This document shows positions 11,698-20,625 of a stretch of 64,000 nucleotides of DNA, piece after piece. Source of the stretch: Flavobacteriaceae bacterium. Lineage in GTDB: Bacteria > Bacteroidota > Bacteroidia > Flavobacteriales > Flavobacteriaceae. The stretch covers positions 3,488-67,487 of the forward strand of contig NZMG01000030.1 in the NCBI GenBank assembly GCA_002694465.1, written 5' to 3'. Within the stretch, counting starts at the first letter, position 1; the number at the start of each line of letters is the position of its first letter. The position numbers and the translations under genes were made by a program. Below the pieces are notes generated by a model, which searched no databases, had not been told where the DNA came from, and saw only the letters and a list, made by a program, of their open reading frames with translations.

Positions 11698-11725
11698 TAA
11701 CAATAATAAATATTCTAAATTTATA

Positions 11726-11752
11726 GGGAGCGCCAACGGCGCTCCTTTTTTA
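11726..11752 (+). terminator. Rho-independent terminator
   Basis: ggagcgcc-aac-ggcgctcc followed by a T run. Confidence 0.88.
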
Positions 11753-11866
11753 TTTTAAAAATGTTCAATTTAATCCCTAATTAGATTCACTTTTTTGAAA
11801 TCTGATTTTTATCAGTTCAAGAAAATTCAATTTTGCTATTTTTAAACCTGGCAAGAACAACGATTT

Positions 11867-13612
11867 ATGAATTACGGGTTTACCGACTTTCTACAATTAT
11901 TTGGGTCTCTGGGTCTCTTCCTCTTCGGAATGAAAGTAATGAGCGACGCCCTTCTTAATTTGGCTGGCGATCGCATGCGAAAGATATTGGCAACCATGAC
12001 TTCCAATAAGTACATGGGTATTTTTACGGGGTTTTTAATTACTTCTGTTATACAGTCTTCCTCTGCGACAACCTTGATGGTTGTTAGTTTTTCTAACGCT
12101 TCATTGTTAACGCTTACAGAAGCAATAAGTGTTATTATGGGGGCCAATATTGGTACTACAATTACAGCTTGGTTAATAACAATTTTAGGGTTTAAAGTTA
12201 GTATGAGTGCTATTGCATTACCCTTAGTGGGTTTTGGTTTTGCTTTTACTTTCTCAAAAAAGCCTTCATTAAAAAATTGGGGTGCCTTTATAATTGGGTT
12301 TTCCATTTTATTTATAGGATTACAATTCTTAAAAGATGCTGTACCAGATATTAAAAGCAATCCTGAGATTTTAGCTTTTTTAACGAGCTACACAGATTTA
12401 GGCTTTTGGTCTATATTAATCTTTTTACTTATAGGAACATTATTAACTGTAATAATTCAGTCATCCAGTGCTACTATGGCACTAACGTTAATTATGACTG
12501 CACAAGGATGGATTTCATTCGAGTTGGCTGCTGCTATGGTTTTAGGGGAAAATATAGGAACAACCATTACGGCCAATCTAGCTGCAATAGTAGCAAACTT
12601 CCAAGCAAAGCGAACGGCAAGAGCGCACTTTTTATTTAATATTATTGGGGTAATTTGGGTATTGATTTTATTTTACCCATTCCTAAAATTAGTTACTTGG
12701 GTTTCAGAAAAAGCAGGCTCGGATTCTCCTTATCTTACTGCTGCTGCTATTCCTGTTGCAATTTCTTTGTTTCACACTATTTTCAATATCTGTAATACAT
12801 TTTTATTGATGTGGTTCATCAAGCCTATAGCAAAAATTGTGGAACGATTAGTGCCAGAAAAAGAAATTGTTGAGAAAGAAATGGATGAGCCTAAATTTCT
12901 TATGAATAGCGTTCTGGAATTTCCAGAAACATTAATTCATTCATTAAAAAATGAATCGAAATATTTGTTTGAAAATTCAATTCTTGAAATAGTTTCAAAA
13001 GCAATGAATATTATTTCAACAGATTTAAAATCTGAAACTAAAATTAAAAAGGTAGTAAAGAAGAATAAACAAGACTTAAAAACGGATGTAGATAATTTGT
13101 ATTACACCAAAGTAAAAAATATTTATGGGAAGATTATTGAGTATGCAACAAAGGGGCAGAGTAGTTTAAAACTTACCCAAAAGCAAACCAAAGAAATTTC
13201 GGAAGTTAAATTAGCCAATAGAGTTATGGTAGAGATAGTTAAAAATTGTGTTGGGCTAAATAAGAATGTTACTAAGTACTTTAATTCTGAAAATGAATTT
13301 GTTAAAAAAGAATACTATAAATACCGAAAAAAAATCGCTAAAGTTATAAGAGTAATTTATCTATTCGCTGAGCAAGATGAGAAAGATAAATATTATTTAA
13401 AATTAAGAAAGCTAAAACAAGAAGCAGAACAGGAATACCATCATTCTAATGAATCTATTAATAGTTTAATACGTCAAAATCTCATTAGTGTTTCCATGGC
13501 TTCTTCTTTAATTAATGATAATGATACTGTTAATGATATTATTAAGAAACTCATCATCGTAGCAGAGTTGTTATTTACTACTAAAGATAGTTTATTAGAA
13601 AATGGAACATAA
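11867..13612 (+). CDS. Na/Pi cotransporter family protein (NptA-like) with PhoU-like C-terminal region
   Basis: Two QSSSAT repeats, GANIGTT and GENIGTT motifs, soluble helical C-terminus. Confidence 0.93.
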   Translation: MNYGFTDFLQLFGSLGLFLFGMKVMSDALLNLAGDRMRKILATMTSNKYMGIFTGFLITSVIQSSSATTLMVVSFSNASLLTLTEAISVIMGANIGTTITAWLITILGFKVSMSAIALPLVGFGFAFTFSKKPSLKNWGAFIIGFSILFIGLQFLKDAVPDIKSNPEILAFLTSYTDLGFWSILIFLLIGTLLTVIIQSSSATMALTLIMTAQGWISFELAAAMVLGENIGTTITANLAAIVANFQAKRTARAHFLFNIIGVIWVLILFYPFLKLVTWVSEKAGSDSPYLTAAAIPVAISLFHTIFNICNTFLLMWFIKPIAKIVERLVPEKEIVEKEMDEPKFLMNSVLEFPETLIHSLKNESKYLFENSILEIVSKAMNIISTDLKSETKIKKVVKKNKQDLKTDVDNLYYTKVKNIYGKIIEYATKGQSSLKLTQKQTKEISEVKLANRVMVEIVKNCVGLNKNVTKYFNSENEFVKKEYYKYRKKIAKVIRVIYLFAEQDEKDKYYLKLRKLKQEAEQEYHHSNESINSLIRQNLISVSMASSLINDNDTVNDIIKKLIIVAELLFTTKDSLLENGT

Positions 13613-13642
13613 AAAAACCCTCCAATAAAGGAGGTTTTTTTT
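13611..13642. terminator. Bidirectional terminator between the convergent phosphate transporters
   Basis: aaaaaaac-c-ctcc-aataaa-ggag-gttttttt, with an A run on the left and a T run on the right. Confidence 0.8.
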
Positions 13643-13657
13643 AAGAATTTAAACAAA

Positions 13658-15901
13658 TTAATTCTTTTTATAACTATTGTAATACTCTTCCATTAAGTGG
13701 ATAAGAGCTGTCACAAGATCTTTAGTTTCCATTAATAAATTGAAATAAAGTGTGGTATTCTTTGGACTAGACTCTTCCGTTCTAGTTCTTTGAATTTGCT
13801 TCTCAATTTTTGCTGAGATATCTGCATAAGCCTTTTCTTTTCGGTCTAAAATACCTTCAAGTCTTTCAAAATCCTTGGTATCAAAAATATTTACAATATC
13901 CATTAGTAGGTGCTCGAATGAAGCATTTATTTCTTGAAGATCTTTAATTTGATTAAATTTTAGGGCCTTGTGATTATTGTTAACATGCTTGTAACTCTTT
14001 TTTGTTATGTATTCTAAGGACTGAGCCACATCGGTTAAATATCCAAGTATAATGATATAGAAGTTACTACCTCTTACACTTGTATCATCAAGATTTTTAA
14101 TAAAATAGAATATGTTATTTCTTAAATCTTCAATTTCATTATCGAGTTTTTCAACCCCCTTCTTTGTCTTTTTAAGTTTCTTTTCATCTTGCTTTGCAAG
14201 ACCTTTAATTACCTCTGTATAAATCTTATTTGTTCTGGAAACAACATTTGAAATGTTATTTGCACTTTCAGAAATAATTCCTTGTACCGTTTTACTTTCA
14301 GACTTTTTTAAACCAGTTTTGTCTAGTTTTTCTATTCCTTTTCTTTTATGTGACAAATAATTTCTTATTAATAATGCTAATGCGACTAATAATAGGATAG
14401 CAATAGCAGGTCCTCTTCCTATATAAATGATATAGGTTAAGGTTCCCGCGGCTAAAAAAGCACTGAATGCTGTAAAAAACCAGCCTCCAATGACGTTTAG
14501 TACTCCTGCTACTCGATATACCGCACTTTCACGCCCCCAAGCTCTATCTGCCAATGAGGTACCCATAGCTACCATAAAAGTTACATAGGTAGTGGAAAGA
14601 GGTAACTTCATTGAAGTGGCAATGGCAATAAGAATACCAGCTACCGTTAGGTTTATAGAAGCACGAATCAAATCAAATGCAGGTATTTCGTGAGCTTTAC
14701 CAGCTGGAATTTTTACCTCTGGTTTTTCGAAACTTTTCGCAATTTTATCTTGTGTTGACTGAGGTATAGCACCCCCTAATAATGAAGCTAATTTTGTACT
14801 TCCTTTAACAACAGCACGAGATAAGATGTTAGGATTAAATTTTTCTGCCCCGTCACCTTGTCTAGAGAGTCCTATTTCTGTTTCGGTAACAGTTCTTGCT
14901 TTTTTGGAAAACCAAAGTGTTAATACCATTATAGCACCAGAGACAAATAGTAAAAGAGGTTCTGCAGGGACTTTTTCTTCAAGAACATTCATTGAAAATG
15001 CATTCGCCGCTTCTCCAGAGACAGACCAAGCTTCATAACTATGGTATGCAGCCATAGGAACACCAATAAAGTTAACTAAATCGTTTCCAGAAAACGCTAA
15101 TGCTAACCCAAATGTCCCAATTGCTATTACTACCAATAGGATGCTTTTTTTAAATATTTTAGTAAATAATATTGAAAAGGCAGTCCAAAAAAGAAACCCA
15201 ATTCCTATTACTATCCAAAAATTTGTAGCTAGAATTTCTTTAAAAGCACTATAATTTGGAGCTCCTTTAAGTCCTTTAAAAAAGATAAAATAGCTAATTG
15301 CGGTTAGGGTTAAACCCCCAAAAATGGCCCCAAAATTCTTCATTTTTTGTTCGTAATGAAACGAAAATACAAGCCTAGATAACCATTGAACCAGTGCTCC
15401 TAGGGTAAAAGCAATTACTACTGAAAGTAAAATACCTGTGATAATTTCTATTGCCTTTTCAGAATTTATATAATTTCCTATATCAGCCATCGTTTCCGAA
15501 GAGGACGCGCCAATTTTTATAAGCGCCATTACTACAGTAGCACCTAGTAAAGAAAAAACTATGGATACTGTAGTGGAAGTGGGCATTCCTAGTGTATTGA
15601 AGAAATCTAGTAATAAAATATCCGTAATCATTACGGCTAAAAATATTATCATAATTTCATCAAAATAGAATTCTCCAGGGATAAAAATCCCTTTACGAGC
15701 AACTTCCATCATCCCACTGGAATAAACGGCTCCAATAAAAATTCCTAAACTCGCAACAATCATAATGGTACGGTAAGGAATAGCTTTAGAACCAATTGCA
15801 GAATTTAGAAAGTTTACAGCATCATTACTAACACCAACAACTAAATCAACAATAGCTAAAACCGCTAAAGCTACAAGCATTAAAATGTAAATATTATCCA
15901 T
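13658..15901 (-). CDS. PiT/PHO4 family inorganic phosphate transporter with PhoU-like C-terminal domain
   Basis: GVSNDAVNFLNSAIGS, GMPTSTTVSIV, GNDLVNFIGVP, LPLSTTYV signature motifs. Confidence 0.93.
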   Translation of the reverse strand: MDNIYILMLVALAVLAIVDLVVGVSNDAVNFLNSAIGSKAIPYRTIMIVASLGIFIGAVYSSGMMEVARKGIFIPGEFYFDEIMIIFLAVMITDILLLDFFNTLGMPTSTTVSIVFSLLGATVVMALIKIGASSSETMADIGNYINSEKAIEIITGILLSVVIAFTLGALVQWLSRLVFSFHYEQKMKNFGAIFGGLTLTAISYFIFFKGLKGAPNYSAFKEILATNFWIVIGIGFLFWTAFSILFTKIFKKSILLVVIAIGTFGLALAFSGNDLVNFIGVPMAAYHSYEAWSVSGEAANAFSMNVLEEKVPAEPLLLFVSGAIMVLTLWFSKKARTVTETEIGLSRQGDGAEKFNPNILSRAVVKGSTKLASLLGGAIPQSTQDKIAKSFEKPEVKIPAGKAHEIPAFDLIRASINLTVAGILIAIATSMKLPLSTTYVTFMVAMGTSLADRAWGRESAVYRVAGVLNVIGGWFFTAFSAFLAAGTLTYIIYIGRGPAIAILLLVALALLIRNYLSHKRKGIEKLDKTGLKKSESKTVQGIISESANNISNVVSRTNKIYTEVIKGLAKQDEKKLKKTKKGVEKLDNEIEDLRNNIFYFIKNLDDTSVRGSNFYIIILGYLTDVAQSLEYITKKSYKHVNNNHKALKFNQIKDLQEINASFEHLLMDIVNIFDTKDFERLEGILDRKEKAYADISAKIEKQIQRTRTEESSPKNTTLYFNLLMETKDLVTALIHLMEEYYNSYKKN

Positions 15902-15973: not shown

Positions 15974-17176
15974 TTAAAAATGCAGGTCAAAACCTATTCT
16001 AAATTCAATGCTATCTGCATCACCTTCTAACGTAGTATAACTAACATCAGATTGAACTTTAAGTTTGTGGCCTACAATATACTTAGAAACACCTAAAGTA
16101 TACTGTTCTTCACCTAGTCTACTAGTAATGTTATTATAATCTGTATTAGTAAACCTTCCTGCAATTTCATAATTATTTTTAAATAAATAACCAGCTTGTA
16201 AATTTAATGCATTACCTACTAATACAATATCTCCAGTTTCGGTTCCGTCTGCTTCGATGGCTACAGGGTTTTCGGCATCTCTATTAGCATATTCTCCCAT
16301 AAATGAAAAACCTTTGTATTTAAACATGGTATCAATAAACAAAGTGGTAATATCGGTTTCGTATAAAGAGCCATCTTCCAAAAACATATAGGAACCTAAA
16401 TTACTTCTTGTTTTTACAGCATCTTGATTTAAATCGTAAGTTACTCCTATCATTAATTTTGGTGAAGCCTCTCTAGCTAAATCTGCTTGAAAATAATCTC
16501 CATTGGATTTAAATAATCCAAATGGAAGGAACTCTAATCTACCGGTATATTGTAACCCACCTTCATTTCCTTCGGTGATATTTCTTCCTTCTCCCTGTGA
16601 AATAGCAACTTTTTCACGAATTATAAAATCTCCGCCCAAATTTGCGTGATGACGTAATTGCATTCCTATATCGCGGTCAATATTGAAGCGGCTGTTTAGT
16701 AAGGATCGGTCTATTAATTGCATATTTGCTGAAGAAACAACACGTTCTACGTTTCCTGGCAATTTTGTTTGCCCTACCCATAATTCGAAATTTTCATAAA
16801 AATTCCACATAATTACCGCATCCAATATATATCTAGGCGTATTTCGGTTAAATTCATTTGCTCCTGATATGTCTCTATTAGAAAGACCTAATTCAATTTT
16901 ATATTCAAGTTTAGGTGAGTATGCCCATCCATCAAATTTTAAACGAGCACGTCTTATTAAAAAATTATGCTCTGGGCTATTATAATTATTACCATTATAA
17001 TCCCAGTTCGTTTCAGAACGAAATTGAATCCTTGGAGCAAATTTGATACTAAAAGTACTATCTTTTGCAGTGTAATTAATGATTCCTTTTCCAAATGAAG
17101 TGTCACTAATTTCTTGAGCTTCAATAGTAAGTGTGGAAAATAAAATTGCCAAAATGGCAAACTTTAAAAGTTTCAT
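15974..17176 (-). CDS. Phosphate-selective porin (OprO/OprP family)
   Basis: Signal peptide, FLIRRARLKFDG, VGQTKLPGNVERVVSS, C-terminal DLHF; context among Pi transporters. Start reassigned to MKLLKF (17176). Confidence 0.85.
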   Translation of the reverse strand: MKLLKFAILAILFSTLTIEAQEISDTSFGKGIINYTAKDSTFSIKFAPRIQFRSETNWDYNGNNYNSPEHNFLIRRARLKFDGWAYSPKLEYKIELGLSNRDISGANEFNRNTPRYILDAVIMWNFYENFELWVGQTKLPGNVERVVSSANMQLIDRSLLNSRFNIDRDIGMQLRHHANLGGDFIIREKVAISQGEGRNITEGNEGGLQYTGRLEFLPFGLFKSNGDYFQADLAREASPKLMIGVTYDLNQDAVKTRSNLGSYMFLEDGSLYETDITTLFIDTMFKYKGFSFMGEYANRDAENPVAIEADGTETGDIVLVGNALNLQAGYLFKNNYEIAGRFTNTDYNNITSRLGEEQYTLGVSKYIVGHKLKVQSDVSYTTLEGDADSIEFRIGFDLHF

Positions 17177-17202
17177 GTAAATCGTTTTAAGTTTTTGTCG
17201 GT

Positions 17203-17247
17203 GCAAAGAACTTAAACCAATGTTAACTGAATGTTACCTATAAGTTA
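17203..17247 (-). promoter_or_regulatory. Porin promoter with four phased Pho-box-like half-sites
   Basis: Plus-strand ACTTA 17210, TGTTA 17221, TGTTA 17232, AGTTA 17243 (all 11 bp apart), at offsets 7/18/29/40 from GCAAA at 17203. Confidence 0.65.
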
Positions 17248-17265
17248 TTTTTAAAAATATTATAC

Positions 17266-17291
17266 AAAAAGGGTCGCCCATTGGGCGACCC
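17266..17291 (-). terminator. Terminator of the candidate phosphate-island sRNA
   Basis: Perfect 9-bp GC-rich stem gggtcgccc-att-gggcgaccc, with a T run only on the minus strand. Confidence 0.85.
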
Positions 17292-17355
17292 CACACATTG
17301 ATAAAATCTAGTCGACAAAAACTTAACGATTTATATGTGTATGTGTATTAAACAC
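17266..17355 (-). ncRNA. Candidate ~90-nt antisense sRNA of the phosphate island
   Basis: Own terminator, TTTATTTG -7-like element at 17368-17361, 5' hairpin GUGU-UUAAU-ACAC, and a 25-nt stretch complementary to the porin and Na/Pi symporter 5' UTRs. Confidence 0.7.
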
Positions 17356-17478
17356 AAAAACAAATAAAGGCCATCTGTATAGCTAAATCGTCATCTAAAT
17401 ATTAAATAAATATTAAGTTTTCTCTTTAATGCTGAAAAGGCATATATAGCACTGAAAATCAGTTTAATAATAATTCAA

Positions 17479-17533
17479 TGTTAATTTAATGTTATGCAAA
17501 CCTTTATTAATTGTTACCAATTTTGTAAATTTG
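17479..17533 (+). promoter_or_regulatory. Promoter of the 17.5-kb gene overlapped by TGTTA repeats
   Basis: Exact -7 TAAATTTG at 17526-17533; TGTTA at 17479, 17490 and 17512 (11 and 22 bp spacing). Confidence 0.55.
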
Positions 17534-17552
17534 AGCTATTAACCCTTAAAAT

Positions 17553-17921
17553 ATGTTTATCATGAGAAAATTATTAGTAGTATTTACTATTTCTCTTTTA
17601 GCAGGGTCGGCTTTTTCACAAGAAAAAGTACAAGATGAATTTGTTAAAGAAGGAAAAGTGATTAAAGCTACGCTTTACCATGAAAATGGAATGGTAGCTC
17701 AAACTGGTTTTTACACATTGGATAATAAACTAGAGGGTGAATGGATAAGTTATGATGCAGTAGGAAATAAAACTGCTGTAGCTCACTACAACAAGGGAAA
17801 CAAAGTTGGTACATGGTATTTTTACCAAGGTAATGAGATTAAGGAGGTAAATTACTCCAATTCTAAAGTTGCCAAAGTGACTTCTTTTAAGATTACAGAT
17901 GCTGTTGTGATATCCAACTAA
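17553..17921 (+). CDS. Secreted MORN-variant repeat protein (YwqK-like)
   Basis: Signal peptide (start may be 17562); repeats YHENGMVAQTGFY, LEGEWISYDAVGNK, KVGTWYFY. Confidence 0.75.
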   Translation: MFIMRKLLVVFTISLLAGSAFSQEKVQDEFVKEGKVIKATLYHENGMVAQTGFYTLDNKLEGEWISYDAVGNKTAVAHYNKGNKVGTWYFYQGNEIKEVNYSNSKVAKVTSFKITDAVVISN

Positions 17922-18391: not shown

Positions 18392-19984
18392 ATGTTTAAA
18401 TCGTTACGAAATGACATACCAGCGAGTATTGTCGTATTTTTTGTAGCATTGCCGTTATGTTTAGGTATTGCCCTTGCCAGTGGAGCACCTTTATTTTCAG
18501 GTTTAATTGCTGGTATTGTAGGGGGGGTTATTGTTGGATCTTTAAGTGGGTCTAAAATTGGAGTTTCTGGTCCTGCGGCAGGATTAGCAGCCATTGTATT
18601 GACAGCCATAGGAACCTTAGGTGGGTTTCAAAATTTTTTGGTGGCTGTTGTATTGGCAGGTGTAATACAGCTTTTGTTTGGAATTTTAAAAGCTGGAATT
18701 ATTGCATATTACTTTCCTTCTTCTGTGATAAAGGGAATGCTAACAGGAATAGGAATTATTATTATATTAAAACAAATCCCCCATTTTTTTGGATATGATC
18801 CAAATCCAGAAGGAGATTTTGCTTTTTTTGAAGTTTCAGGAGATAATACTTTTTCAAGTCTTATTAAGACCATTAATAACATCATCCCCGGCTCTGCCTT
18901 AATTGGTATAGTTGGCTTAGGAATATTAATCCTGTGGGAAAAAGTGTTGTCTAAAAAAGGAAAGATATTTCAATTAGTTCAAGGACCCTTGGTAGCCGTG
19001 ATTGTGGGGATTGCGTTTTATGCACTTACAAAGTCTCATGATTCACTTTCCATTGCAGGATCACATTTGGTAAGTGTACCTGTTCCAGAGGATGCCGCCT
19101 CTTTTTTAGGACAATTTAGTTTTCCAAATTTTTCAGTCATTACCCAACAAGATATTTGGATTGTGGCATTTACTTTAGCTTTGGTAGCGAGTCTTGAAAC
19201 TCTGCTTTGTGTTGAAGCAACCGATAAACTTGACCCAAATAAAAACGTTACACCTACTAATAGGGAACTTTTCGCACAAGGGGCGGGAAATATTATTTCG
19301 GGATTAATTGGAGGGTTGCCTATTACACAAGTAATTGTGAGGAGTTCTGCTAACATCCAATCTGGAGGAAAGAGTAAAATGTCCACCATTATACATGGGT
19401 TTTTCCTATTAATTTCTATCATATTGATACCAAAATTGCTTAATATGATTCCCCTTTCTGTACTTGCAGCAATTTTACTTGTGGTTGGTTATAAATTGGC
19501 AAAACCGCAATTATTTAAAAAGATGTATGATTTAGGGTGGAAACAATTTGTACCTTTTACGGTAACAGTTTTGGGGATTATTTTTATTGATCTTTTATAT
19601 GGAATAGGATTAGGATTACTAGTAGGGATTGTTGTAATTCTTATTAAAAGTTATCAAAATTCCCATTTCCTGCATAAAGAGGATGTAAGTAATGGAGTCC
19701 AGAAATTGAAAATGACGTTAGCGGAGGAAGTGACCTTTTTTAACAAAGGAGCAATATTAAAGGAATTGGATAGAATCCCTAGTGATTCATATGTTGAGTT
19801 AGACGTAAGAAAAACTCGATATTTGGATAATGATATTATTGAAATATTAGATGATTTTGCGTATAAAGCTAAGGAAAGAAATATTACGATTAAGTTAATT
19901 TCTGAAAGAGGGACGGTTGTTAACCCTCCTAGTTATATTGAATTTTTTAAATTAAGACCAGTAACCGAACAATTTACAAACTAA
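18392..19984 (+). CDS. SulP family inorganic anion (probably bicarbonate) transporter
   Basis: ALPLCLGIALASGAP..SGLIAGIVGG, VSGPAAGL, NRELFAQGAGN, C-terminal STAS-like domain; directly upstream of a carbonic anhydrase. Confidence 0.93.
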   Translation: MFKSLRNDIPASIVVFFVALPLCLGIALASGAPLFSGLIAGIVGGVIVGSLSGSKIGVSGPAAGLAAIVLTAIGTLGGFQNFLVAVVLAGVIQLLFGILKAGIIAYYFPSSVIKGMLTGIGIIIILKQIPHFFGYDPNPEGDFAFFEVSGDNTFSSLIKTINNIIPGSALIGIVGLGILILWEKVLSKKGKIFQLVQGPLVAVIVGIAFYALTKSHDSLSIAGSHLVSVPVPEDAASFLGQFSFPNFSVITQQDIWIVAFTLALVASLETLLCVEATDKLDPNKNVTPTNRELFAQGAGNIISGLIGGLPITQVIVRSSANIQSGGKSKMSTIIHGFFLLISIILIPKLLNMIPLSVLAAILLVVGYKLAKPQLFKKMYDLGWKQFVPFTVTVLGIIFIDLLYGIGLGLLVGIVVILIKSYQNSHFLHKEDVSNGVQKLKMTLAEEVTFFNKGAILKELDRIPSDSYVELDVRKTRYLDNDIIEILDDFAYKAKERNITIKLISERGTVVNPPSYIEFFKLRPVTEQFTN

Positions 19985-19995
19985 AATAAAAGAGT

Positions 19996-20625
19996 ATGAA
20001 AGCACACACTAGAGAAACACAGGCTACAATGACGCCTCAAAAGTCATTACAATATTTAAAAGAAGGAAACGAACGATTTCAAAATAACTTAAAGGCAAAT
20101 AGAAACCTCTTAGAGCAAGTAAACGATACTAGCGATGGGCAATTTCCATTTGCAACCATTTTAAGCTGTATAGATTCTAGAGTTTCTGCAGAGTTAGTTT
20201 TTGACCAAGGATTAGGAGATATATTTAGCGTAAGGATTGCTGGAAATTTTGTGAATGAAGATATCTTAGGAAGCATGGAGTTTGCTTGCAAATTGGCTGG
20301 AACAAAGCTCATAGTTGTTTTAGGACATACCGCATGTGGCGCTGTAAAAGGGGCTTGCGACCATGCCGAAATGGGAAACCTTACAAAACTTATTCAGAAA
20401 ATAACGCCTGCAGTAAATGCTGTTACCGAGCCTAAAGATGAAAGTTTACGTAATTCGGCCAATGCTGAATTTGTGGATGCGGTTTCTGAAAAGAATGTTC
20501 AACTTACTATTGATCGAATACATGCAGAAAGTCCAATACTTTCCGAAATGGAGAAAAATGGTGAAATCATGATTATTGGAGCTATGTATGATATCAATAC
20601 TGGTGCAGTTACATTTTATGAATAA
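19996..20625 (+). CDS. Beta-class carbonic anhydrase
   Basis: GQFPFATILSCIDSRV, VRIAGN, VVLGHTACGAV Zn-ligand motifs. Confidence 0.95.
   Translation: MKAHTRETQATMTPQKSLQYLKEGNERFQNNLKANRNLLEQVNDTSDGQFPFATILSCIDSRVSAELVFDQGLGDIFSVRIAGNFVNEDILGSMEFACKLAGTKLIVVLGHTACGAVKGACDHAEMGNLTKLIQKITPAVNAVTEPKDESLRNSANAEFVDAVSEKNVQLTIDRIHAESPILSEMEKNGEIMIIGAMYDINTGAVTFYE

What the first reader, a model, noticed from the sequence alone, without database searches (positions are those of the whole stretch)
11850..11869. Second target 5 kb away: the Na/Pi symporter 5' UTR also pairs with the sRNA seed
Seen: the leader ggcaagaac-aacgatttATG (11850-11869) can form 9 bp (two G-U) with sRNA GUUUUUGUC, then a 2-nt sRNA bulge, then 10 perfect bp with AUAAAUCGUU that overlap the AUG. 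This gene is on the opposite strand and unrelated in sequence to the porin, so local duplication does not explain the match. I see no phased TAACA boxes in its promoter. Inference: the sRNA silences a non-Pho-box, presumably lower-affinity Na/Pi symporter when the Pho-like regulon is on.
Basis: partly seen in the sequence, partly recalled or inferred. Interest (0 to 1): 0.8.

Follow-up and report, generated by a model that had tools for sequence, protein, structure and literature searches.

The report
Conserved sRNA site on Na/Pi transporter leader
The short leader of a sodium/phosphate transporter gene carries a pairing site for a neighbouring, undescribed small RNA; the match is modest in this genome, but related flavobacteria keep it through compensatory changes, so it is probably a real second target of a phosphate-linked regulatory RNA.

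Summary
Bases 11849-11869 (UGGCAAGAAC-AACGAUUUAUG) pair with the candidate sRNA (minus strand, about 17345 to 17262). There are 10 bp with three G·U, then a 2-nt sRNA bulge, then 10 Watson-Crick bp reaching the AUG (-20.5 kcal/mol).

In this genome alone the evidence is only suggestive:
- By hybridisation energy it is the second-best start region, after the porin.
- With accessibility added it ranks 63 of 2,564.

Comparative evidence is strong:
- The sRNA has three hairpins and an invariant loop, AGUUUUUGUCGACUA. It occurs in about a third of Flavobacteriaceae genomes sampled.
- In 12 of 28 loci with a cognate sRNA, the orthologous symporter start region pairs at -20 kcal/mol or better. Only 6 of 364 control start regions do.
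- Core substitutions are all wobble-compatible transitions, whereas flanks show 68% transversions.
- Two compensatory sRNA/mRNA changes separate Altibacter from Halomarinibacterium.
- Site-bearing leaders always co-occur with the sRNA and never carry the phased Pho-box-like repeats that many other orthologs have.

The most likely mechanism is that the sRNA blocks the translation start region. No Rfam family or paper describes this sRNA.

The parts
11849..11869 (+). sRNA pairing site in the 5' UTR and start codon of the Na/Pi symporter mRNA (UGGCAAGAAC-AACGAUUUAUG)
   Evidence: duplex -20.5 kcal/mol. Orthologous sites are conserved with wobble-only and compensatory changes.
11867..13612 (+). 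Na/Pi cotransporter II-related protein (581 aa)
   Evidence: PF02690 at 2e-58. TIGR00704 at 248 bits, above the curated cut-off of 210. N-terminus MNYG is conserved in 70 orthologs.
11828..11835 (+). Putative Bacteroidota-type -7 promoter box (CAATTTTG, consensus TAnnTTTG). It would place the pairing site inside a leader of about 25-30 nt.
   Evidence: Read from sequence. The consensus is from my own knowledge. The transcription start site is not mapped.
11725..11747 (+). Intrinsic terminator of the upstream gene, so the symporter has its own promoter
17262..17345 (-). Candidate trans-acting sRNA of about 85-90 nt: a small 5' hairpin, a long hairpin presenting the invariant loop, and a terminator. 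The 5' end is inferred.
   Evidence: Fold z-score -4.3. Three-hairpin fold in 26 homologs. Terminator pairs covary: 8 of 9 show compensatory changes. Terminator scan.
17309..17323 (-). Invariant loop AGUUUUUGUCGACUA (13 nt identical in 26 homologs from many genera)
   Evidence: The 14-mer is found in 145 of 401 family genomes.
17311..17336 (-). Extended seed AUAUAAAUCGUUAAGUUUUUGUCGAC, used against both the porin and symporter leaders
17177..17201 (-). First target: porin leader CCGACAAAAACUUAAAACGAUUUAC, immediately before the ATG (17176-17174)
   Evidence: -24.1 kcal/mol. Conserved in all 27 porin-linked loci at -20.6 to -31.8 kcal/mol.
15974..17176 (-). Phosphate-selective porin O/P family gene
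   Evidence: PF07396 at 7.8e-11
13658..15901 (-). PiT/PHO4-family phosphate transporter, downstream of the porin on the same strand
   Evidence: PF01384 at 8.8e-29
17217..17238 (-). Phased boxes GGTAACAT-TCAG-TTAACAT in the porin promoter (11-bp period, Pho-box-like)
17395..17417 (-). Phased boxes TTAATAT-TTAT-TTAATAT upstream of the sRNA (11-bp period)
   Evidence: sRNA promoters score 16-20, against a random 99th percentile of 18.

Best explanation
Bases 11849-11869 are a genuine, selectively maintained binding site for a conserved Flavobacteriaceae small RNA. That sRNA is encoded about 5.4 kb away, directly upstream of the porin O/P-PiT operon.

The sRNA presents an invariant loop (AGUUUUUGUCGACUA) at the tip of a long hairpin. 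The loop nucleates pairing with a CGACAAAAAC-like motif at the very 5' end of two short, unstructured leaders, those of the porin and the Na/Pi symporter. Lineage-specific flanking pairs then extend the duplex to the start codon. In this genome the loop pairing is weakened (three G·U) and compensated by a perfect 10-bp extension over the AUG.

Bound sRNA most likely blocks 30S access and so lowers symporter synthesis.

Shown here: the pairing, its conservation, and co-variation with the sRNA. Inferred: that the sRNA is expressed as a separate transcript, that the effect is repression, and that it operates when the box-binding (probably PhoB-type) regulator is active.
For: - **Pairing in this genome.** The duplex is as described.
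- **Ortholog pairing.** In 12 of 28 loci where the cognate sRNA is known, the symporter start region pairs at -20.4 to -36.1 kcal/mol. It ranks first or second in its locus. Only 6 of 364 control start regions reach -20 (Fisher 2e-11, not corrected for phylogeny).
- **Another genus.** The ortholog in G017/L074 carries a perfect 15-nt complement, TAGTCGACAAAAACT, ending 8 nt before the ATG.
- **Substitution pattern in the site.** In the 10-nt core of 13 distinct symporter sites there are 110 matches and 16 A>G or C>U changes on the mRNA strand, all wobble-compatible. There are no other transitions. The 4 apparent transversions come from a shorter A-run.
- **Core versus flank.** In pairwise comparisons the core shows 20 transitions and 0 transversions. 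The flanking leader shows 66 transitions and 138 transversions, and up to 50% divergence.
- **Compensatory changes in trans.** Altibacter (L047) and L051 sRNAs have GUCAAC instead of GUCGAC, and their symporter leaders have U at the partner position. Altibacter sRNA AUAUCGU pairs with leader ACGAUAU, whereas Halomarinibacterium AAAUCGU pairs with ACGAUUU. The Altibacter porin leader does not follow the second change.
- **Not a copy of the porin leader.** Several symporter leaders match the sRNA complement UAGUCGAC where the porin leader has GCAGCGAC.
- **Co-occurrence.** All 12 site-bearing loci with enough flank have the sRNA, against about half of the site-less loci.
- **A free-standing sRNA gene.** It has its own terminator and phased-box promoter region. 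In L051 it is separated from the porin by two genes, yet both targets keep complementarity.
- **Unstructured leaders.** Fold z-scores are -0.3 and -1.3, so there is no evidence for an activating unmasking mechanism.
Against: - No expression data.
- With accessibility included, the site in this genome ranks only 63rd of 2,564 start regions.
- Of all site-bearing orthologs, this genome's site has the weakest match to the accessible loop. Most of its 10-bp extension must compete with the sRNA's own stem.
- Sixteen of 28 sRNA-bearing loci have no site on the symporter leader, so the interaction is lineage-specific.
- The statistics are not corrected for shared ancestry. Independent lineages number roughly 5-8.
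- If the sRNA and the porin share an activator, the circuit represses a gene it also activates. That is possible but unproven.
Confidence: 0.62

Rival explanations
1. The pairing is real, but its effect is not translational silencing of the symporter. The sRNA might protect the extreme 5' end of the mRNA and stabilise or activate it. Alternatively the two abundant leaders might titrate the sRNA as sponges.
For: In most lineages the site begins at or near the predicted 5' end of the mRNA, 2-3 nt after a TAnnTTT[GA] box, and ends 5-10 nt before the AUG rather than over it. Many orthologs without the site carry phased boxes instead. If those boxes activate, then equivalent regulation through the sRNA would need a positive effect.
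Against: In this genome the duplex covers the AUG. Everywhere else it lies inside the usual 30S footprint. The leaders have no inhibitory structure to be opened. In box-type leaders the boxes end only 10-15 nt before the start codon, a geometry more typical of repression than activation.
Confidence: 0.13
2. Chance complementarity in this genome. AU-rich leaders pair easily with an AU-rich sRNA, and the site has no function in Halomarinibacterium, possibly being a decaying remnant.
For: Accessibility-corrected rank is 63 of 2,564. The core has three G·U pairs and a bulge. About a dozen equally good duplexes exist elsewhere in the genome.
Against: Between G000 and G003 the site changed at three positions, and all three changes preserve or improve pairing, while the 42 nt upstream changed once. 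Sister lineages (Altibacter, L059, L051) keep the site through compensatory changes, although their flanks are 40-50% diverged. The lineage-specific extension AACGAUUUAU matches the lineage-specific 5' part of the seed.
Confidence: 0.1
3. The shared motif acts at the DNA level. It would be an operator or core-promoter/initial-transcribed element (TTTG-nAG-nCGACAAAAAC) bound by a protein at the porin and symporter promoters, and the 'sRNA' copy would be a third binding site.
For: In many leaders the motif directly follows the putative -7 box. The porin and some symporter promoters look alike over about 25 nt. GTCGAC is palindromic.
Against: Substitutions are strand-specific and exclusively G·U-compatible, and protein-DNA recognition does not predict that. 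The motif is asymmetric. Co-variation follows the sRNA sequence outside the shared core. In this genome the motif sits 13 nt after the -7-like box, not adjacent to it.
Confidence: 0.06
4. The 'sRNA' is only a cis-acting leader or attenuator of the porin operon, with read-through from an upstream promoter, and does not act in trans. On this view the symporter match is irrelevant.
For: It has a tandem orientation directly upstream of the porin in nearly all loci. The terminator could serve as an attenuator. The anti-leader sequence could fold back on the porin start region.
Against: A complete box-plus-(-7) promoter lies between the terminator and the porin leader. In L051 the sRNA is separated from the porin by two genes on the other strand, and the porin keeps its own promoter. 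A cis-only role cannot explain why symporter leaders track the sRNA sequence.
Confidence: 0.05

Closest known systems
MicF and the OmpR-controlled porin genes of E. coli (my own knowledge)
   Same: A small RNA gene sits next to a porin gene, and both appear to be served by an OmpR/PhoB-type regulator with phased direct-repeat boxes. The sRNA pairs with the translation start region of an envelope or transport mRNA.
   Different: micF is divergent from ompC and represses the other porin, ompF. It depends on Hfq. Here the sRNA is in tandem with, and complementary to, the porin it precedes. It has a second target encoding an inner-membrane Na/Pi transporter, and it belongs to a phylum without Hfq. 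There is no sequence relationship (no Rfam hit).
Characterised Bacteroidota sRNAs, e.g. GibS of Bacteroides thetaiotaomicron (my own knowledge) and Rfp18 of Flavobacterium psychrophilum (PMC9723704)
   Same: Free-standing, terminator-ended, structured sRNAs of Bacteroidota. They use one exposed region to pair with several mRNAs of related function. Rfp18 is conserved beyond its species, and its predicted targets share one pairing loop.
   Different: The sequences and targets are unrelated (glycan use; metalloproteases). Nothing in PMC9723704 concerns phosphate or porin genes. The present sRNA is supported only by comparative sequence evidence.
Phosphate-linked sRNAs in other phyla: PhoS of Bacillus (PMC11522486) and sRNA132 of Haloferax volcanii (PMC6560208)
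   Same: An sRNA wired into phosphate homeostasis. It is transcribed in response to phosphate scarcity or targets phosphate-transport mRNAs.
   Different: PhoS is derived from the phoPR 3' UTR and feeds back positively on PhoP. sRNA132 acts on a pst ABC-transporter operon in an archaeon. Neither is linked to a porin or a Na/Pi cotransporter, and neither is related in sequence. Phosphate control of the present sRNA is inferred only from phased boxes.

Membership tests
Trans-encoded base-pairing sRNA with multiple targets | Independent transcription unit (own promoter and terminator) | tested here: inconclusive
   The terminator is strong and its pairs covary. Conserved phased boxes and an ATTTG-type -7 element lie upstream. 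In L051 the gene is unlinked from the porin.
Trans-encoded base-pairing sRNA with multiple targets | Conserved, exposed seed region | tested here: met
   13 nt are invariant in 26 homologs whose other positions average 66% identity. The seed sits at the tip of hairpin 2 in nearly all predicted folds, and UUUGUC is always unpaired.
Trans-encoded base-pairing sRNA with multiple targets | Complementarity to target start regions maintained in evolution by compensatory or wobble changes | tested here: met
   Porin: all 27 linked loci pair at -20.6 kcal/mol or better. Symporter: 12 of 28 loci. Substitutions are wobble-only. Two compensatory sRNA/mRNA changes.
Trans-encoded base-pairing sRNA with multiple targets | Seed-dependent change in target protein or mRNA level | not testable with these tools
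   Needs reporter fusions or mutants.
Any Rfam RNA family (release 15) | Covariance-model score at or above the gathering threshold | tested here: not met
   Only a tRNA was found in the window at gathering thresholds. At E up to 10 on 17100-17560, every hit is far below its gathering score (best 23 bits against 114).
Pho-regulon promoter (phased direct repeats replacing the -35 region) | Two or more 7-bp TTAACAT-like boxes at 11-bp period upstream of the symporter | tested here: not met
   The triple-box score is 16 for this leader, against a random-window mean of 14 and a 95th percentile of 16. All 14 site-bearing leaders score 17 or less. 23 of 49 other orthologs score 18 or more.
Pho-regulon promoter (phased direct repeats replacing the -35 region) | Boxes upstream of the sRNA and porin are bound by PhoB and respond to phosphate | not testable with these tools
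   The boxes are present. The genome encodes a best PhoB-like regulator at 218 bits, below the equivalog cut-off of 296. A strict box search found only 4 gene-proximal sites in the genome, none at a recognisable Pho gene other than the porin.
Na/Pi cotransporter II-related protein (TIGR00704 / PF02690) | Profile score above the curated cut-off | tested here: met
   TIGR00704 at 248.1 bits against a cut-off of 210.1. PF02690 at 196.7 bits against 29.1.

The most novel reading that the evidence does not exclude
A family-wide, previously undescribed phosphate-homeostasis sRNA of Flavobacteriaceae controls both an outer-membrane phosphate porin and an inner-membrane Na/Pi transporter. The transporter gene has been repeatedly rewired between two mutually exclusive modes of control. 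One mode is phased regulator boxes overlapping its core promoter. The other is an sRNA site in its leader. The same physiological input would then reach the gene either directly or through the RNA. Sister genomes L057 and L054 show a recent switch.
Probability: 0.4. Interest if true: 0.75.

Novelty: new member of a known kind. Interest (0 to 1): 0.62.

Why it matters
Very few regulatory RNAs of Bacteroidota have known targets. I could find none tied to phosphate acquisition, a nutrient that limits marine Flavobacteriaceae.

This is an sRNA with an invariant 13-15-nt loop, present in roughly a third of the family. It has two predicted targets supported by trans compensatory changes, which makes it a ready-made experimental system. 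It would add a post-transcriptional layer to phosphate uptake control.

The either/or pattern of promoter boxes versus sRNA site on one orthologous gene is a clean natural example of regulatory rewiring between protein and RNA control.

For this specific finding, the comparative evidence is what makes the second target credible. A single-genome target prediction would not have singled it out.

Tried and rejected
- **Rfam.** Searches at gathering and at permissive thresholds found no family.
- **Literature.** Six searches and two papers read gave no description of this sRNA or of a Bacteroidota Pho box.
- **Earlier scan notes.** Nothing was found by place, words or sequence.
- **Longer sRNA query.** A 48-nt query in RNAduplex gave loopy, inflated duplexes, and the ranking was not meaningful.
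- **First accessibility correction.** Scoring only whole suboptimal duplexes penalised long duplexes. It was replaced by a sub-interval scan.
- **Strict Pho-box search.** A genome-wide regular expression for two phased boxes gave only 11 hits, 4 of them gene-proximal. It did not identify a regulon.
- **RNAalifold.** On the MAFFT alignment it recovered the terminator and the tip helix, but not the long stem of hairpin 2, because the stem arms are misaligned. Single-sequence folds show that stem.
- **ECF-sigma promoter idea.** I considered GGAAAC...CGAC as an ECF-type promoter and rejected it, because the 32-nt spacing is wrong.
- **Promoter duplication.** I considered duplication of the porin promoter as the source of the match. 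It is rejected as an explanation for conservation, because symporter leaders follow the sRNA and not the porin leader.
Full report
**1. Anatomy of the region**

The window comes from a Halomarinibacterium genome. It is 99% identical to H. sedimenti at the symporter locus. The assembly is 3.24 Mb at 36% G+C.

| Feature | Coordinates | Strand | Evidence |
|---|---|---|---|
| Na/Pi cotransporter II-related protein | 11867-13612 | + | PF02690, TIGR00704 above cut-off |
| Terminator of the previous gene, so the symporter has its own promoter | 11725-11747 | + | |
| PiT/PHO4 transporter | 13658-15901 | - | |
| Phosphate-selective porin O/P gene (ATG at 17176) | 15974-17176 | - | |
| Porin promoter with phased boxes | 17217-17238 | - | |
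| Strong intrinsic terminator | 17292-17270 | - | |
| Stretch whose RNA reads AUAUAAAUCGUUAAGUUUUUGUCGAC | 17336-17311 | - | |

The symporter and the PiT gene are convergent. It folds far better than shuffles (z = -4.3).

**2. The observation**

Bases 11850-11869 read exactly as reported. RNAduplex gives the reported pairing plus one more U·G pair at 11849. The result is 11 positions with three G·U, an AA bulge in the sRNA, then 10 Watson-Crick pairs over A and U of the AUG. The energy is -20.5 kcal/mol, against -24.1 for the porin leader.

**3. Is it more than chance within this genome?**

- I used the 26-nt seed defined independently by its complementarity to the porin leader, and slid RNAduplex over both strands of the whole assembly (323,842 windows).
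- That scan places the symporter site about 13th. Of those 13 sites, only the porin and symporter sites lie on a start codon. The rest are inside ORFs or antisense.
- An IntaRNA-like score of my own adds the opening energies of both RNAs. It ranks the porin 11th and the symporter 63rd of 2,564 crude start regions.
- Even the near-certain primary target is not first. This measure has little power, and it leaves the symporter site in the top 2.5%.

**4. The sRNA is a conserved family**

- BLAST of the 96-nt stretch against relatives finds it in the same genus. Its central part is found in many other genera of the family.
- Twenty-six homologs from the symporter loci align with an invariant GUUUUUGUCGACU block, amid 66% mean identity elsewhere.
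- The terminator stem shows compensatory changes at 8 of 9 pairs.
- Single-sequence folds give the same architecture almost everywhere: a small 5' hairpin, a long hairpin whose tip carries the invariant block with UUUGUC unpaired, and the terminator.
- The invariant 14-mer occurs in 145 of 401 Flavobacteriaceae genomes (120 of 302 genera), usually once. The reversed control occurs in about 50 genomes.
- Upstream of the sRNA lie three to four TTAATAT-type boxes at an 11-bp period. The porin promoter has GAAACAT/TTAACAT boxes at the same period.
- No Rfam family matches, and I found no paper describing it.

**5. The symporter leader in other genomes**

A search of one genome per species returned 70 orthologous loci with 10-kb flanks. 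The sRNA-porin-PiT-symporter synteny is widespread.

- **Bimodal pairing.** Scoring each symporter start region against its own sRNA gives a bimodal result. Twelve of 28 loci fall at -20.4 to -36.1 kcal/mol, always first or second in the locus and in five loci better than the porin. The other 16 fall at -8.6 to -16.3, like the 364 control start regions (median -11.1; six at -20 or better). Fisher p = 2e-11, uncorrected for phylogeny.
- **A perfect site in another genus.** In G017/L074 the leader carries a perfect 15-nt complement, TAGTCGACAAAAACT, 8 nt before the ATG.
- **Position on the symporter tree.** Site-bearing leaders occupy two separated parts. One is 10 of 13 members of the Halomarinibacterium-Altibacter-Aureitalea clade. 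The other is L114, L065/66 and L074 in the second large clade.

**6. RNA-level signature**

- **Substitution types.** Against the perfect complement of the loop, the 10-nt core of 13 distinct symporter sites shows 110 matches and 16 substitutions. All 16 are A>G or C>U on the mRNA strand, so they are G·U-compatible. The four remaining mismatches come from a shorter A-run.
- **Core versus flank.** In pairwise comparisons the core has 20 transitions and no transversion. The remaining leader has 66 transitions and 138 transversions, and reaches 40-50% divergence.
- **Compensatory change 1.** Altibacter (L047) and L051 sRNAs read GUCAAC instead of GUCGAC, and their symporter leaders have U at the partner position. 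The series C-G, U·G (this genome), U-A is the classic path.
- **Compensatory change 2.** In the lineage-specific extension, Altibacter pairs sRNA AUAUCGU with leader ACGAUAU. Halomarinibacterium pairs AAAUCGU with ACGAUUU. The Altibacter porin leader (ACGAUUU) does not follow.
- **Closest relative.** Between this genome and G003 the site differs at three positions. Each change preserves or improves pairing, while the 42 nt upstream differ once.
- **Not a promoter copy.** Several symporter leaders match the sRNA complement UAGUCGAC where porin leaders have GCAGCGAC. The site therefore tracks the sRNA and is not a duplicated porin promoter.
- **Co-occurrence.** Every site-bearing locus with enough flank has the sRNA (12 of 12), against roughly half of the other loci.
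- **Unlinked sRNA.** In L051 the sRNA is separated from the porin by two genes on the other strand, and both targets keep complementarity. This argues for a free-standing, trans-acting gene.

**7. What is particular to this genome**

- Halomarinibacterium has the weakest loop match of all site-bearing orthologs: UGGCAAGAAC against the ideal CGACAAAAAC.
- It also has the longest perfect extension, AACGAUUUAU, reaching the AUG.
- Most of that extension must displace the sRNA's own stem. That is why the accessibility-corrected score is modest.
- Regulation here may therefore be weaker than in lineages such as L074 or L114.
The family-wide conserved element is the loop complement.

**8. Mechanism and circuit**

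- Both leaders are short and unstructured (z = -0.3 and -1.3).
- The duplex covers or abuts the start codon, so occlusion of the initiation region is the most economical mechanism.
It also generalises: none of the 14 site-bearing leaders scores above background, whereas 23 of 49 other orthologs carry three phased TTTACAT/TTAACAT boxes (hypergeometric about 6e-4).
- The sister loci L057 (site) and L054 (boxes) show a recent switch.
- In box-type leaders the last box ends only 10-15 nt before the (often TTG or GTG) start codon. In the porin promoter the gap is 42 nt. This suggests that the boxes overlap the core promoter there and repress.
- If so, both wirings would turn the symporter down when the box-binding regulator is active: directly in one case, through the sRNA in the other.
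- This step is inference. Transcription starts are unmapped, and the regulator is unidentified. The best PhoB-like protein scores 218 bits, below the equivalog cut-off. A strict box search did not reveal a recognisable Pho regulon.

**9. Comparison with known systems and verdict**

- It works like a classical trans-encoded sRNA with an exposed seed and several envelope or transport targets. The nearest analogy in layout is MicF beside ompC.
- Within Bacteroidota it resembles GibS or Rfp18 in style, but not in sequence or function.
- Phosphate-linked sRNAs exist in Bacillus (PhoS) and Haloferax (sRNA132), but they are unrelated.
- It belongs to no Rfam family.
- I rate it a new member of a known kind.

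| Claim | Odds |
|---|---|
| The site is a true, selected pairing site | about 0.75 |
| The outcome is repression, given a true site | about 0.6-0.7 |
| The input is phosphate limitation | about 0.4 |

**10. Limits**

- Gene calls for the background were crude.
- The accessibility scoring is my own approximation.
- Many loci come from metagenome bins.
- The counts are not phylogenetically independent.

Noticed in passing
L049, L056, L058, L060, L069, L070, L072, L075, L095, L098, L100, L106, L108: 40 nt before the symporter start: Many orthologous symporters (Maribacter, Dokdonia, Aquimarina, Aurantibacter and others) start with TTG or GTG. They carry three phased boxes (TTTACAT-TATA-TTTACGT-TAAn-TTAACAT) ending only 10-15 nt before the start codon. 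This is an unusual promoter and leader geometry that may mean repression or a very short leader.
   Followed up: partly
window 11806-11817 (CTGATTTTTATCAG); same position in L046, L047, L051, L052, L057, L059, L104, L109: An imperfect inverted repeat, TGAnATTTATCA, is conserved about 55-60 nt upstream of the ATG in the site-bearing clade of symporter promoters. It could be an operator for another regulator.
   Followed up: no
window 17478-17495 (minus strand reads ATAACAT-TAAA-TTAACAT): A further pair of porin-type phased boxes lies about 130 nt upstream of the sRNA, between it and the divergent 122-aa gene (17553-17921). It is also present in G017. Which promoter it serves is unclear.
   Followed up: no
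L052:15773, L104:15749, L109:12856, L077:15777 (+ strand, proteins of about 123-130 aa): The small gene divergent from the sRNA, with no Pfam or NCBIfam hit in this window, has a start region that pairs with the cognate sRNA at -17 to -19 kcal/mol in several genera. It is not notable in this genome. It is a possible third target in some lineages.
   Followed up: no
L051 14251-18604: In this MAG the sRNA is separated from the porin by a SulP-like 613-aa gene and a 209-aa gene on the other strand. The same two genes lie beyond the sRNA in the window (18392-20625). This indicates a local rearrangement.
   Followed up: partly
G129:C1:55351/55472, G099:C32:9575/9697, G399:C10:222404/222588: In some genera the invariant 14-mer occurs twice in opposite orientation, 120-185 nt apart. 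The porin leader there is therefore a perfect complement of the whole loop, including UAGUCGAC.
   Followed up: no
window 13619-13634: A bidirectional terminator hairpin (CCTCCAATAAAGGAGG flanked by T-runs on both strands) lies between the convergent symporter and PiT genes.
   Followed up: no
G006:C9:427273-427286: The closest relative, H. sedimenti, has a second exact copy of the 14-mer on another contig. The window's genome has only one.
   Followed up: no
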